47,712 nt of DNA from positions 1-47,712 of the forward strand of contig JBBRXO010000009.1 in the NCBI GenBank assembly GCA_038248345.1, read 5' to 3'. This DNA comes from Armatimonadota bacterium. Its GTDB lineage: Bacteria; Armatimonadota; Hebobacteria; CAIYQO01. The position numbers were made by a program. Below are positions 13,373-19,300 of the stretch, piece by piece. Positions within the stretch are counted from its first letter, which is position 1. Each line of letters opens with the position of its first letter.

Positions 13373-16300
13373 TGACGCAAGGAAACCTCATCTCCATCCG
13401 TGACCTAGCTAATAACGGTATCATGGGCCTCTTCGAGCTGGCGCATGAGTATAACGAAGCTGGCCGCAAACGTTTGGCAGTTGCGCACGACGCCATTATT
13501 GCCACCTTATTCTACGAGCCAAGCACACGCACGCGTATGTCTTTCGAGGCGGCTATGTTGCGCCTGGGCGGGCAGGTTATCAGTATGGCTGACCCCAGCG
13601 CCTCCTCTGCAGTCAAGGGCGAGACGTTGGCCGACACCGTGCGTATTGTAGAGAGCTACGCCGACATTATCGCCCTGCGCCACCCCCGCGAAGGTGCGGC
13701 GCGCGTAGCTGCGGAACATGCGGGCGTGCCAATAATTAACGCTGGCGACGGCGCGCGTGAGCATCCGACGCAGACATTGGTGGATTTATATACCATATAT
13801 CGCGAGATCGGCAAGCTGGAAGGTGTCACGGTGGCGCTCTGCGGTGACCTGAAACACGGGCGCACGGTGCATTCATTGGCGCAGGGGCTGGCACGCTTCG
13901 GCGCGCATATGATCTGCGTGGCTCCTCCGGGTTTGGAACTTCCCCCGTCGCTGGTTACCTCGCTCACTCAAAATCACGGGATAAAAATCGACAGTTTCTG
14001 CACCCTGGATGCCGCTCCATTAGGCGACTGCGATGCCCTGTACGTAACCCGCCTGCAGAAAGAGCGCTTCGCCGACCCGGCAGAGCTGGAGCGCGTTCGT
14101 CATAGCTATGTGGTCTCCCTCGCTACCCTCACCCGCCTGCGGCAGGATGCTATCGTGTTGCACCCGTTGCCGCGTGTGGATGAGCTGGAGTATGCCCTCG
14201 ACGGTGACCCGCGCGCCGCCTATTTCCGCCAGGCGGCCTACGGCGTCCCCGTGCGCATGGCGCTTATCTCCGCTTTGCTAGGACTGCGCAAAGTCACGGA
14301 TTTATACGAGACAGCGCCCGCAAGCTGGACTGCCTGCGACAACCAAGTTGTATGCGCCAATGCGCGTTGCATCATCAATGCGGAGCCAGGATTGCCGACA
14401 CGAGCAGAAACCCGCGCCAACGGCGCACACCGCTGCGGCTATTGCGAGAGGGAGGCGGTATGACAATATTGATTAAAAACGTCTCCAGCAATGGCGAAAT
14501 TAAGGATATTTCCTTCGGAGGGCCTGCGCTCTCCGATGAGAGCAAGTATGACCAGGTGATCGACGGCACCGGCCTGCTGGCCGTGCCCGCCTTCGTCGAC
14601 GTCCACGTACACTTCCGTGATCCCGGCCAGACGGAGAAGGAAGACCTGCTCACCGGCGCACGCGCGGCGGTGGACGGTGGCTACGGGCGGGTGATCTGCG
14701 AGGCCAATACCTCCCCGGTGATCGACAACTTGGAAAAGGTGCAGGCATTCTACGCACGTGTGAAGGAGCTGCAACTGCCTATAACCGTAGATACCAAGTG
14801 CGCCCTGACAATCGGGCAGCAGGGAGAGCAACTGGTAGATATTGCCGGACTGAAAGAGAGCTATCCGAGCATTATCTTCAGCAGCGACGGCGAGCCGGTG
14901 ACGGATCGCGAGTTGTTGATTAAGGCCTTCCGTGCAGCAGGAAATAACGAGATACACCTTCATTGTGAGGAGACACCCCGTTCGCATGAGCGCGTAGTCG
15001 CCGTCCTGGGCGAGGGGGCATACCTTTCTCGCGAGGTGGAGTTGATCAAACTGGCGCTATCAGCATTAACGGAAGCAGGGGTCGGCAGTCTGCATATCCA
15101 GCATGTAAGCCTCGCCGAGAGCGTTGCGATTATCGCAGAAGCAAAAGAGCGCGGGCTGAATGTTACCGCCGAGGTGACACCGCATCATATGTTACTTTGT
15201 GATGAGGATATCCCCGTAGGGGATACCAACTGGAAGATGAACCCGCCACTACGCAGTCGGAAAGATATGATGGCAGTTCGCAAGGCACTAGCTGATGACA
15301 TAATCGATGTAATTGCCACCGACCACGCCCCGCACACAATTGCAGACAAATCAAAATCGTGGGACGAAGCGCCATTTGGTGTTATCGGATTGGAGACGGC
15401 ATTCGGGGCTTGCATGAAGCTGGTACGTTCGGGCGAATTGTCTTTCGGAAGATTGATAGTGGCGATGACGGATGGTGAGCAATCGCTTGAATATGGGGTC
15501 ACATTAATAGATCCCAATGAAAAATGGACGGTAGATTCAGCTAAATTCGAGTCAAAATCCAGTAATTGTCCCTTCGCTGGGATGGCGTTAATCGGTAAAG
15601 TGAAGAGGATAGTTCCTAGTTCCTGGTTCCTAGTTTCTGGTTCAATGTTCAATGTTCAATGTTCAATGTAATACGCAGATTTTGCGAATTATGGAGTTTA
15701 GAATGGCTGATAAATTTGAAGAGCTTGTTGCTTGGCAGAAAGCACGTGAACTATGCAACGCGGTTTATTGCCTGACGTTAGAAGGTGCTTTTAATAGAGA
15801 TTTTGCATTGCGAGATCAGATTAGAAGAGCGGCTATCTCCATTATGTCTAACATTGCTGAGGGTTTTGAACGAGGTGGTAACAGGGAATTATGTCAATTT
15901 TTGTATATAGCCAAGGGATCTGCAGGAGAAGTCAGAGCGCAATTGTACATTGCACACGATGTCGGTTATATCACCGATGAACAATTTGAGAGACTGAATG
16001 ATATGACGATTAAGAACAGCCAGCTAATTGCAGGATTCATACGCTACATTGAAAAGAGCGACATGAAAGGTTCAAAATACAAGGAATAGTAATGTGAAAA
16101 CAGTGGGTGAATGACTTCGCAAAAGCATTGCTACTCGTTGAACATTGAACGTTGAACATTGAATCATAGATAGGAACTTTATTATGGCTAAATTAGTTTT
16201 GAGTGATGGTACCGAGTTTTCCGGCGTCTCCATTGGCGCTCCGGTTACGCATATTGGCGAGGTAGTTTTCAATACTTCGATGACCGGGTATCAGGAGATG

Positions 16301-19300
16301 CTCACTGACCCCAGTTATCGCGGGCAGATATTGACGCTCACCTATCCGCTCATCGGCAATTATGGCATTACCGATGAGGACTGGGAGTCGAGCGAGGTGC
16401 AGGTGCGCGGGCTGGTGGTGAAGCAGCTTTGTGCCCGGCACAGCAACTGGCGCGCCACGGCGGCGCTGGATGACTTCCTGCGTGAGAAGGGGATACCGGG
16501 CATCGCTGGGGTGGACACACGTATGTTGACGCGTGCGATTCGCTCGCACGGCGTGATGATGGGCGTGATCACCGGCGAGGACAAGACGGCGGCGGAATTG
16601 CAGCAACTGCTCACCGATGCGCCGGATTACGGCCTCACCGACTACGTGAAGGAAGTATCCGCCGGGCGCATTTACCCGTGGCAGGAGCAGGTACAGGAAC
16701 CTTACGATGAGCTGGCACGCTTCGTCGCACCGGAGCAGCTGAATATCACCGTGGTTGATTATGGGGTAAAGCGCAACATTCTGCGCCTTCTCGCAACCCG
16801 TGGCTGTACCGTGCGCGTGGTTCCTTGCGATGCACCGGCTTCTGTTATCCTGGAGGGCAACCCCGATGGCATCGTCTTCTCGCCTGGCCCCGGTGACCCG
16901 GCGATGTTGGGCTACGCTATCAAAGTGATGCAGCAGGTGGTCGCCACAGGGATTCCCATATTGGGCATCTGCCTAGGCCACCAGCTGATGGCACCTGCCT
17001 TCGGTGGTAAGACCTTCAAGCTGAAATTCGGCCACCGCGGCAGCAATCACCCGGTGAAGGATCTGGTACGTAACGGTGCCATCCACATCACCGCGCAGAA
17101 TCACGGCTACGCGGTAGACGCCGACAGCATCGCCGGCAGCGGCCTGAAGGTCAGCCATATCAACCTGAACGACGGCACGGTAGAAGGAATGGTACATGAG
17201 ACCCTGCCGATTATGACCATGCAGTTTCACCCGGAAGCCAGCGGCGGGCCACGGGATACGGAGTATATGTTTGATGAATTTGTCAGGATAGTCGCTAGTC
17301 GCTAGTCTCTAGTCCTGATTGAATGGTTACAATTCGGAGATAGAAGGAAACGATGGCAACTATTTCTCGGTTTGAGGATATTGAAGCTTGGAAGTAAGCG
17401 CGGGAGCTGACGCGCGAGGTGTATCAATTAACAGCTTGTGGTGAATTTGCGCGTGATTACGGTTTACGCGAACAGGTGCGTCGTGCAGCGGTATCGGTGA
17501 TGTCGAATATTGCTGAAGGTTTTGAACGTGGGAGTGATAGGCAATTACGTCATTTTCTCCTTATCGCCAAGGGTTCGGTCGGAGAGGTGAAGTGCCAACT
17601 CTATATCGCGCATGACGTTGGATATATATCAGAAGAGCAGTTCAGCATATTGATGAACAAAACAACTGAGATCGGGAGAATGCTCGCTGGTTTCATGCGC
17701 TATTTAGAACAAAACGATAAAAAAGGATAGTCTCAAGTCAGTCTGTCAAAATCATGACTAGCGACTAGCGACTAGTGACTTATTAGGAGATACTATATAT
17801 GCCTCTAAGAACAGACTTACATAAGGTAATGGTCATCGGCTCCGGCCCCATTGTTATCGGGCAGGCTGCCGAGTTCGACTATGCGGGGACGCAGGCTTGC
17901 CGGGCGTTGCGCGAGGAGGGGTTGTCGGTGGTGCTGGTGAACAGCAACCCGGCGACTATCATGACCGACGCGAATATGGCGGACAAGGTCTATATTGAAC
18001 CGCTGACGGTGGAATTCCTCACGAAGATCATCGAGAAGGAGCGTCCGGACGGGCTACTGCCCACACTCGGTGGGCAGACGGGGCTGAACCTGGCGACGAA
18101 GCTGGCGAAGAAGGGTGTGCTGGATGATTACGGTGTGGAGCTACTTGGTACCCCGCTGTCATCTATCGAGAAAGCGGAGGATCGCGAGCTGTTTAAGAAC
18201 CTGATGAAGGAGCTGAACGAGCCGGTGCCCGAGTCCGCCATCGCCGAGAGTATGCAGCACGTGAAGGATTTCGTCGCTCATCTCATAGAAGTGGAGAAAG
18301 AGACGGGTCTGCCGGTATTCCCCATCATCGTGCGCCCGGCGTACACCCTGGGCGGCACCGGCGGTGGCATCGCCTATACCATGGAAGAACTTCACGATAT
18401 CAGTGTGCGCGGTTTCCGCATGTCCATGACGCAGCAGTTACTGCTGGAGCGCTGCCTGCTGGGCTGGAAAGAAGTCGAGTATGAAGTGATGCGCGATGGC
18501 GATGACAACTGTATTACCATCTGTAATATGGAGAACTTCGATCCGATGGGCATCCATACCGGCGACTCCATCGTTATCGCCCCCAGCCAGACGCTCTCCG
18601 ACAAAGAGTACCAGATGTTGCGCTCCGCCTCGGTAAAGATCATCCGCGCACTGGGTATCTGGGGTGGATGTAATGTGCAGTTGTCGCTCGATCCGAAGAC
18701 CTTCCGCTATTACGTCATCGAGGTAAATCCCCGCGTGAGCCGTTCTTCGGCGCTGGCATCGAAAGCTACCGGCTACCCGATTGCCCGCGTGGCGGCGAAG
18801 ATCGCCGTCGGCCTGCGATTGGATGAAATACAGAATGCGGTGACCAAGCGCACACTCGCCTGCTTCGAGCCGGCGCTGGACTATGTGGTGCTGAAGATCC
18901 CGCGCTGGCCCTTCGATAAGTTCAACTTTGCTGACCGGCGCATCACCACGCAGATGAAAGCCACGGGTGAGGTGATGGCTATCGACCGCACCTTTGAAGG
19001 CGCGCTGATGAAGGCAGTCCGTTCACTGGAGATCGGCCAATATGGCCTGACGCTGAAGGGCATCTGCGACTGGACCGACATGCAGCTGGAGGAAGTGATA
19101 AAACATGCCACCGACCAGCGCCTCTTCGCCATCTGCGAGGGCTTCCGGCGCGGTATGGACGTGGAGGAGATACACCAGCTCTCCAATGTGGACGTATGGT
19201 TCCTGGAGAAGGTGAAGGGCCTCGTTGATCTGGAGACCGAGTTCCGCGCCCACAAAGGCCTGCCCGACGAGACGCTGTTGCGCCGTGCAAAAGTGGCCAG

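What a model noticed while it worked through the whole genome (the two positions that open the first line are those of the whole stretch)
15605..17780. Four-helix-bundle (Avd/IVP) and GxxExxY genes are mobile cassettes bounded by inverted 7-mer / 8-9-mer tandem arrays, wi [...]
Both four-helix-bundle (PF05635) genes in the pyr operon sit between inverted tandem heptamer arrays, the GxxExxY nuclease gene (C72:12135-12533) between inverted 9-mer arrays, and the same arrays occur gene-free across the genome. These are likely a widespread REPtron-like class of mobile elements in which the small protein spreads or maintains its own inverted tandem repeats. That would give a function to two very common unknown families and an origin for the unexplained intergenic heptamer arrays of bacteria.
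Evidence so far: g484: (TTCAATG)n left, (AACATTG)n right; g486: (AGTCGCT)n / (AGCGACT)n; g1767: (CACAGAGGG)n / (CTCTGTGCT)n. 126 non-coding 7-9-mer arrays in the genome, 17 as inverted pairs, most without a gene. 80 metagenome loci of g484 homologs, 70 with full flanks: 41 left array, 36 right, 24 both, and all 24 inverted, 36 of 41 left arrays 7-mers with many different units; control 0 of 359 random genes. Family relatives: 4 of 9 PF05635 and 3 of 10 GxxExxY loci inverted by the strict test, more by eye. The pyrC-carA and ktrB-ktrA junctions of G002 are empty. Paper searches 176, 177, 181, 188, 189, 195, 196 found no such link.
(Added by a program. Inside this text positions count along the whole contig: contig position 1 is position 1 of the stretch shown here. 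"Call 12" and the like, gene names such as g00115 and contig names such as C1 are that model's own, and its searches are not shown. The text may have been shortened before it was handed on; [...] marks where a part breaks off. The agent that wrote the report below was given it as the finding of a first reader that could run no searches.)

Follow-up and report, generated by a model that had tools for sequence, protein, structure and literature searches.

The report
Small genes carrying their own repeats
Two common bacterial genes of unknown function sit between mirror-image runs of a 7-9-base word, come and go at gene junctions between close relatives, and in one family a single amino acid tracks one base of the word, so they are likely selfish cassettes whose protein reads its own repeats, which would explain the puzzling 7-base repeat arrays of many bacteria.

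Summary
Confirmed. Both four-helix-bundle genes (TIGR02436) in the pyr operon, and the GxxExxY gene on C72, lie between inverted 7-9-base arrays. Flanks were inverted in 84 of 101 four-helix and 34 of 48 GxxExxY loci, against 4 of 225 neighbouring ORFs. The sister genome has an empty pyrC-carA junction and a different four-helix gene (58% identical, other unit) at carA-carB. Array load tracks gene presence (30 of 76 genomes with the gene, 1 of 75 without). Added here: residue 60 tracks base 4 of the unit (Asp with C, 10 of 10; 16 of 16 new loci as predicted; tree support weak), arms hold mostly 4-5 units like the pentameric homologues, and mismatches show no mRNA-strand bias. Not shown: movement, binding, a catalytic site in the bundle, target duplications. 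It works like a REPtron but is not one; the four-helix form is the known ORF-bearing 23S intervening sequence (heptamers reported in Coxiella) found outside rRNA. Ten paper searches found no general description. This scan has noted both links many times on other DNA (51 notes for the bundle).

The parts
14460..15671 (+). pyrC (host gene); its last ~20 codons are replaced by array-derived sequence
   Evidence: sister genome G151 ends ...GEVLF, this copy runs through the arrays
15610..15643 (+). outer left arm of cassette 1, TAGTTCC-type x4.9, inside the pyrC 3' end
   Evidence: pairs with 16164-16178 in the fold
15640..15669 (+). inner left arm of cassette 1, GTTCAAT x4.3
15703..16089 (+). four-helix-bundle gene 1 (TIGR02436/PF05635), intact, 128 aa, Asn60
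16138..16163 (+). right arm of cassette 1, TTGAACA x3.7, reverse complement of the inner left arm
16164..16178 (+). decayed partner of the outer left arm
16184..17305 (+). carA (host gene); its stop codon lies inside the next arm
17289..17314 (+). left arm of cassette 2, TAGTCGC x3.7
17353..17730 (+). four-helix-bundle gene 2, TAA at codon 15 (17395-17397), Asp at the position of residue 60
17756..17780 (+). right arm of cassette 2, GACTAGC x3.6
17799..19484 (+). carB first part (host gene)
   Evidence: similarity recalled from the sequence
26167..26201 (+). gene-less arm of the 8-mer family (TACAGACC x4.4)
42364..42411 (+). gene-less arm of the 8-mer family (ACCTAAAG x6); same unit as the arms of the third four-helix gene on C1

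Best explanation
Each four-helix-bundle gene sits with two inverted arms of its own 7-base (sometimes 8-9-base) unit as a cassette that comes, goes and is swapped at gene junctions, and the encoded protein likely forms an Avd-like five-subunit ring that reads one unit per subunit on single-stranded nucleic acid and so likely marks both arms for copying or insertion by enzymes supplied from elsewhere. Shown: layout, turnover between relatives, purifying selection on the gene, co-variation of residue 60 with base 4 of the unit, 4-5 units per arm. Inferred: pentamer (from the solved homologues), binding, single-stranded substrate, DNA-level symmetry of the two arms. Unknown: the catalyst. Gene-less arrays are likely arms laid down or left behind by such cassettes. 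The GxxExxY gene is a second, unrelated system with the same layout; its protein keeps a PD-(D/E)XK active site and likely nicks at or near its own CACAGAG-type arms, which have a fixed outer end.
For: Layout. Turnover: pyrC-carA is empty in G151, G083, G155, G157, G058, holds other four-helix cassettes in G158 and G152, arm remnants in G133 and G156; the three cassettes there are 56-61% identical to each other and in g484 and G158 closer to genes of other phyla (66%, 70%); at carA-carB G151 has a gene 58% identical with another unit while carA and carB are 97-98% identical, and G159 has a GxxExxY cassette there. Of 29 orthologous array-bearing junctions compared with G151 (1.54 Mb of about 2.5 Mb fetched), 19 have no array, 6 another array, 4 the same unit. 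Genome load: >=10 pattern matches in 30 of 76 genomes with a TIGR02436 match and 1 of 75 without, Spearman 0.63. Protein-unit link: Mantel rho -0.29, beyond 999 permutations; Asp60 with C in 10 of 10, C with Asp in 10 of 11, Asn/Thr/Ser with T in 40 of 42 (62 loci with a GT-phased 7-mer of 104 rows); prediction written before the test held in 16 of 16 new loci, 4 of them Asp (read by eye); the two window genes themselves follow it. Codon position 3 differs at 0.56, position 2 at 0.12 in 49 close pairs, yet units stay identical in 37% of pairs at 70-80% and 5 of 5 above 80% identity. Arms hold 4-5 cores in 26 of 60 left and 39 of 60 right arms. Model matches Xcc0516 (TM 0.84) and Avd (TM 0.73); Avd is a pentamer whose protomer crevices bind flipped-out RNA bases (10.1101/2023.10.23.563531, section 8). 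Arm mismatches that would be G-U on the mRNA strand are not enriched: 87 against 83. GxxExxY: E36, D76, E86-x-K88, Q100-xxx-Y104 conserved in 22 sequences, nuclease fold, >=2 words on both arms in 26 of 48 loci and 0 of 101 four-helix loci.
Against: No catalytic residue set is known for the bundle. No target duplication; host codons are lost at both window junctions. 97 of 126 arms have unique interiors and no coding remnant was found in them; some arms ride inside other hairpin repeat families. The largest array family of G000 (GTTCC type) has no matching gene in the 95.7% complete assembly, and two of three genes carry a stop. The residue-base link is not significant in the tree-aware test: 8 changes on the best tree, only 1 forced by well-supported branches; some new loci are kin of training loci. 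One cross-phylum clade travels upstream of the same methylase-like gene, so it hitchhikes with an operon. 46 of 76 genomes with the gene have under 10 matches to the one pattern searched. Junction turnover has no control for ordinary spacer divergence at 84% identity. In Xanthomonas 90% of repeats sat between the same ORFs in two species (PMC4692102, passages). No empty site was found for the C72 GxxExxY gene, because fabG-tatD synteny is not kept in 8 relatives.
Confidence: 0.55

Rival explanations
1. RNA-level element: the arms pair in the transcript, loop the gene out and are cut by RNase III as in the 23S intervening sequence; the protein binds the left arm in RNA to control its own translation or the cut; spread is by ordinary transfer and recombination.
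For: Both window cassettes fold into a long closing stem (z -3.9 and -3.2); four-helix genes are co-oriented with the upstream gene in 81 of 91 and the downstream gene in 73 of 87 loci; Avd binds RNA; in Coxiella the RNase III cut falls at the first heptamer (PMC4990558, passages).
Against: No G-U bias on the mRNA strand (87 v 83); many solo arms that cannot pair; some cassettes lie against the operon direction; it does not explain why dispersed arrays scale with gene copy number.
Confidence: 0.2
2. The arrays and genes are passengers: other nucleases in the same genomes (RAYT/IS200-like, GxxExxY and others) or slippage and gene conversion spread the arrays, and the four-helix gene only inherits whatever unit flanks it.
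For: The genome holds several hairpin repeat families nested in each other; six GTTCAA arms sit in the loop of one such family; an IS200-family gene lies 2 kb away; one clade hitchhikes with an operon.
Against: Residue 60 tracks base 4 across phyla and within one genome; units are kept where synonymous sites are near saturation; arrays of the searched pattern are nearly absent from genomes without the gene (1 of 75).
Confidence: 0.12
3. Retro-insertion: like Avd, the ring partners a reverse transcriptase in trans, and the arms are added to 3' ends at a break by copying the cassette RNA.
For: Avd homology; the GT-rich strand of each arm runs 5' to 3' away from the host gene end, often starting within the stop codon; no target duplication; co-orientation with operons.
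Against: No RT gene beside the cassettes; 14 of 31 array-rich genomes, several 97-99% complete, had no PF00078 match (RT genes are often unassembled); a residue-base link is not needed if RNA is the template.
Confidence: 0.08
4. Domesticated host regulator: the protein is a translational regulator and the arrays are its operators at chosen genes.
For: Many arms end 5-30 bases before start codons, as for TAACTGA in Beggiatoaceae (PMC4679880); genes next to arrays have higher GC3, as core genes would.
Against: 25 of 29 junctions differ from the sister species; two of three genes carry stops; units differ between paralogues of one genome.
Confidence: 0.05

Closest known systems
ORF-bearing intervening sequence (IVS) of 23S rRNA with S23p (Coxiella, Leptospira); PMC4990558, passages seen
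   Same: Same protein family; gene inside terminal inverted repeats; tandem heptamers (GACAGAT x2-3) before the ORF; sporadic distribution; mobility was proposed (Ralph and McClelland 1993, seen only as cited there).
   Different: Here the unit lies between protein-coding genes in many phyla, with many different units, gene-less copies and a residue-base link; none of that is in the passages seen.
REPtrons and TIRtrons (RAYT/TIRYT, HUH Y1 transposases with REP or TIR families); PMC3733652, passages seen
   Same: Single small gene flanked by inverted copies of a repeat that also occurs gene-less and intergenic across the genome; repeat type goes with gene type.
   Different: No HUH or catalytic tyrosine; arms are head-to-tail 7-9-base units, not GTAG-tagged palindromes; proteins are a helical bundle and a PD-(D/E)XK nuclease.
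Avd of diversity-generating retroelements (PDB 4DWL, 8UB7); 10.1101/2023.10.23.563531, passages and section 8 seen
   Same: Same fold (TM 0.73); pentamer that binds bases in crevices between protomers.
   Different: No reverse transcriptase, template region or variable region beside the cassettes; NF033474 score 22.6 against cut-off 80.
Unexplained intergenic heptamer arrays: GGGAATC in Xanthomonas (PMC4692102, passages and one supplement row), TAACTGA in Beggiatoaceae (PMC4679880, abstract, section 10, passages)
   Same: Intergenic 7-mers, about four units, many in convergent pairs (70 in Xcc) or just before start codons; one array overlaps the start of XCC0516, the solved homologue.
   Different: Those papers link the arrays to G-quadruplexes or regulators and report no mobile gene; the TAACTGA paper has no occurrence of 'four helix' or 'GxxExxY'.
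PD-(D/E)XK family PDDEXK_3 / GxxExxY (PF13366, TIGR04256); PMC3424549, one table row seen
   Same: Family membership; listed there as function unknown with multiple transfers.
   Different: No flanking repeats mentioned in that row.

Membership tests
TIGR02436 / PF05635 four-helix-bundle (23S IVP) | profile score over curated cut-off | tested here: met
   116.6 and 108.9 bits against 24; PF05635 over cut-off
TIGR02436 / PF05635 four-helix-bundle (23S IVP) | four-helix fold like Xcc0516 | tested here: met
   model pLDDT 91, TM 0.84 to 2GSC
TIGR02436 / PF05635 four-helix-bundle (23S IVP) | pentamer | not testable with these tools
   inferred from five-chain entries 2GSC and 2RLD and Avd; the complex tool takes at most 4 copies
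23S rRNA intervening sequence | lies in an rRNA gene | tested here: not met
   lies between pyrC, carA and carB; no Rfam match in 14500-21000
23S rRNA intervening sequence | terminal inverted repeats forming a stem around an S23p ORF, with heptamers | tested here: met
23S rRNA intervening sequence | excised from RNA by RNase III | not testable with these tools
   no RNA run listed
REPtron / TIRtron | HUH Y1 transposase gene | tested here: not met
   families and folds are a helical bundle and PD-(D/E)XK
REPtron / TIRtron | gene flanked by inverted copies of a dispersed intergenic repeat | tested here: met
REPtron / TIRtron | enzyme cuts and rejoins its repeat | not testable with these tools
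   needs biochemistry
MITE / IS element | target-site duplication | tested here: inconclusive
   none at the pyr junctions, where host codons are lost; a possible 4-base duplication at one gene-less site (C127); sister genome too distant at 84%
MITE / IS element | copies share an interior sequence | tested here: not met
   97 of 126 arms have unique interiors
Diversity-generating retroelement | reverse transcriptase beside Avd | tested here: not met
   the two RT genes of G000 are on other contigs and look like a group II intron RT and a DRT-like RT, both under cut-off
PD-(D/E)XK nuclease (GxxExxY, TIGR04256) | profile score and E..D..ExK..QxxxY motifs | tested here: met
   158 bits against 35; invariant E36, D76, K88, Q100; motif names recalled; fold hits Z 7-8 only

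The most novel reading that the evidence does not exclude
The 23S-IVP/Avd-like ring is a programmable reader of single-stranded tandem repeats with an amino-acid-to-base code, and it drives a class of selfish cassettes with no enzyme of their own that seeds most intergenic heptamer arrays of bacteria (Xanthomonas, cyanobacteria, sulfur bacteria, the rRNA intervening sequences), while GxxExxY is a third chemistry, after HUH and DDE, for keeping dispersed repeats; Avd of retroelements would be a domesticated member.
Probability: 0.35. Interest if true: 0.9.

Novelty: new variant of a known kind. Interest (0 to 1): 0.72.

Why it matters
It gives two very common families of unknown function a named substrate and a one-residue test, and offers one origin for heptamer arrays that several papers report without a mechanism. 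It would recast the ORF-bearing 23S intervening sequence as one landing site of a general element, and suggest where Avd came from. A ring protein that reads one repeat unit per subunit by a changeable code could be a tool.

Tried and rejected
Mutation halo: I looked for an A+T drift in host genes next to arrays; none, their GC3 is higher than controls (22 and 13 gene ends v 369 and 475). mRNA-strand helix: no G-U bias. Master-copy amplification: interiors mostly unique, no four-helix or GxxExxY remnant in them. RT partner: no co-occurrence needed. Phages: no match in 50,697 phage records or in viral contigs. Rfam: no match. Public runs: no RNA holder listed; contigs of three DNA runs of one study cover the window, and joints between arms are best read as gene-less copies elsewhere, not excision. 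Empty sites for the C72 GxxExxY gene and the C1 four-helix gene: synteny not kept. The reversed pattern offered as control also matches these arrays, so I summed both as array load and have no true pattern control. Four inverted pairs around host genes (C13 twice, C41, C61) are about what chance gives by a rough estimate, not followed. GxxExxY residue-word link: Phe after GxG goes with CACGAA in 5 of 7 loci, with exceptions both ways: weak. Integron attC likeness (GTT......AAC ends; recalled) rejected: opposite order for four-helix arms and no integrase. No complex prediction was obtained. Paper searches found no paper that links either family to tandem arrays outside the Coxiella IVS; subscription journals, NCBI family comments, the Leptospira IVS papers and bioRxiv supplements were not seen and may bear on novelty.
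Full report
Observation. Cassette 1 has a nested left arm (TAGTTCC-type outside, GTTCAAT inside), an intact 128-aa gene and a right arm; cassette 2 has TAGTCGC and GACTAGC arms around a gene with a stop at codon 15. Both genes are TIGR02436. 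A third PF05635 gene on C1 has 8-mer arms, and the GxxExxY gene on C72 has three CACAGAG words on each side. Period 7 dominates the genome's tandem arrays (85 rows, against 13 for period 6 and 1 each for 5 and 10).

Generality. I fetched 110 four-helix loci (80 best of 573 relatives in genome contigs, so biased to close homologues; 30 from a phylum sample) and 63 GxxExxY loci. After dropping own-genome, short, unmatched and near-duplicate rows, 84 of 101 and 34 of 48 had inverted flanks at score 14 or more, against 4 of 225 other ORFs in the same loci; a locus's own right flank was the best partner of its left flank in 52 of 101 and 30 of 48. More distant paralogues from five genomes gave 13 of 25, five of them loci already counted. 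Six of 8 cyanobacterial plasmid copies fetched (of 30 records hit) have inverted arms. The supplement of PMC4692102 lists a GGGAATC array over the start of XCC0516, the solved homologue, without an inverted partner by its rule. The two families use unrelated words and opposite polarity: the GxxExxY word test was met on both arms in 26 of 48 of its loci and 0 of 101 four-helix loci.

Turnover. In family relatives pyrC-carA is empty in five genomes, holds other four-helix cassettes in two, arm remnants in two and another repeat in one. The three cassettes there are 56-61% identical to each other; two of them are closer to genes from other phyla. pyrC itself is only 50-63% identical at that distance, so descent from one old insertion is not excluded by identity alone. 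The genus-level case is clearer: at carA-carB the sister genome G151 has a four-helix gene 58% identical with a different unit while the flanking genes are 97-98% identical, so one replaced the other; its unit is that of the largest gene-less family in G000. A class-level relative has a GxxExxY cassette at that junction. In G000 the arms replace the last codons of pyrC and carA, with no target duplication. Of 29 orthologous junctions that carry an array in G000, G151 has none at 19 (8 with a spacer of 60 bases or less), another array at 6 and the same unit at 4 (one coding repeat dropped; no control for ordinary spacer change). Across 151 genomes of the phylum, 10 or more matches to one heptamer pattern and its reverse occur in 30 of 76 genomes with the gene and 1 of 75 without (kin are not independent).

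Gene-less arrays. Their outer end usually abuts a host stop or start and the inner side faces a longer spacer (read by eye). 97 of 126 arms have unique interiors; the rest are mosaics with other hairpin repeats, and six arms sit in the loop of one such family. So they are not clones of a master copy. GxxExxY-type arms have a fixed outer end after an A/T run.

Protein and unit. A note of this scan (e1-1469936) mentioned an amino-acid-to-base code; I tested it on my own loci. Unit similarity rises with protein identity. Residue 60, at the start of helix 3, tracks base 4 of the GT-phased unit: Asp with C in 10 of 10, Asn/Thr/Ser with T in 40 of 42. I wrote the prediction down and it held in 16 of 16 new loci, 4 with Asp (19 fetched, 3 repeats dropped; units read by eye, some 9-mers, some kin of training loci). 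Asp accepting from the amino group of C and Asn/Thr/Ser donating to the carbonyl of T or U is a chemically sensible swap (my knowledge). Weaker links: residue 110 with base 7 (Ala/Ser with A in 23 of 31). Against: the tree is poorly resolved; Asp60 needs 8 changes on the best tree but only 1 is forced, and the independent-pairs test cannot reach significance. The genes are under purifying selection, and 4 of 101 carry a stop.

Mechanism. The model matches Xcc0516 and Avd. Avd is a pentamer, and the same residues of different protomers hold flipped-out RNA bases in crevices. Arms mostly hold 4-5 units (loci were chosen for having arrays). Sites 7 bases apart on a duplex face different sides, so one unit per subunit fits a single strand (inference). 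Mismatches between arms show no preference for G-U on the mRNA strand, which fits two equivalent binding sites on opposite DNA strands, as at transposon ends, better than an RNA helix; yet the transcripts can fold into a long stem and the genes are mostly co-oriented with their operons. I therefore favour a selfish cassette whose ring marks both arms and borrows a catalyst (0.55), ahead of an RNA-level IVS-like element (0.2), passive passengers (0.12), retro-insertion (0.08; 14 of 31 array-rich genomes had no RT match) and a host regulator (0.05). For GxxExxY the active-site residues are conserved and the fold is PD-(D/E)XK, near Cas4, lambda exonuclease, restriction enzymes and Hjc at modest scores, so a nuclease acting on its own arms is the simplest reading; it is untested and no empty site was found.

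Known and new. The build is in print for one place, the Coxiella 23S intervening sequence, with heptamers, terminal repeats and an RNase III cut; the family is also reported scattered over rRNA insertion sites in CPR bacteria (10.1101/2024.02.27.582315, passages) and inside cas operons (PMC3936711, passage). REPtrons and TIRtrons give the logic of gene plus dispersed repeat with another enzyme. PMC10053308 and PMC8700078 (passages) mention the family without repeats. Ten searches found no general account. The scan itself has noted both links many times; those notes are not independent support. Verdict: real, widespread, probably undescribed in general form, mechanism open but directly testable; new variant of a known kind; interest 0.72.

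Noticed in passing
window 19752-20198: IS200/IS605-family (Y1) transposase gene, over the NF033573 cut-off, between the two halves of carB, flanked by repeated hairpin-like sequences: a likely REPtron/TIRtron.
   Followed up: partly
window 17799-19484 and 20749-22317: carB is encoded in two parts, separated by the transposase gene and a 100-aa ORF with no NCBIfam match (20414-20716).
   Followed up: no
window 15590-15671: pyrC has lost about 20 C-terminal codons to the array; whether the enzyme still works is open.
   Followed up: partly
L036, L040, L043, L044, L046, L050, L095, L275, L276: One site, between a gene ending KVRIV-E and a long methylase-like ORF, holds four-helix cassettes with at least four different units in several phyla; in some the right arm has become the N-terminus of the downstream protein.
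   Followed up: partly
G000 C12:5983, C13:39761, C63:441, C69:140, C153:848, C168:3811: A single GTTCAA-type arm in the loop of another hairpin repeat family, six copies; the G151 copy at one site lacks the arm.
   Followed up: partly
G000 and G151 intergenic spacers: At least four further hairpin repeat families nest in each other at the same junctions, BIME-like; their genes were not sought.
   Followed up: no
G000 C13:38717-39790: An inward-facing pair of GTTCAA arms encloses a 225-aa host gene; may be chance or gene capture.
   Followed up: no
L214, L215: Four-helix genes with arms inside cas operons on cyanobacterial plasmids (cas6-cas4, cas10-cmr3); this may explain their listing as cas-associated genes in PMC3936711.
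   Followed up: partly
L231: Arms with GACAGAA/GACAGGA units resemble the heptamer reported for the Coxiella IVS.
   Followed up: no
G000 C19:869-1561 and C144:4828-5313: Two reverse transcriptases, one group II intron-like next to an 11-mer array at C19:96-137, one DRT3b/DRT4-like, both under cut-off on the matched part.
   Followed up: partly
L270, L279-L282, L284, L285: Clades of the family with 9-base units in long arms, outside the 4-5 heptamer rule.
   Followed up: no
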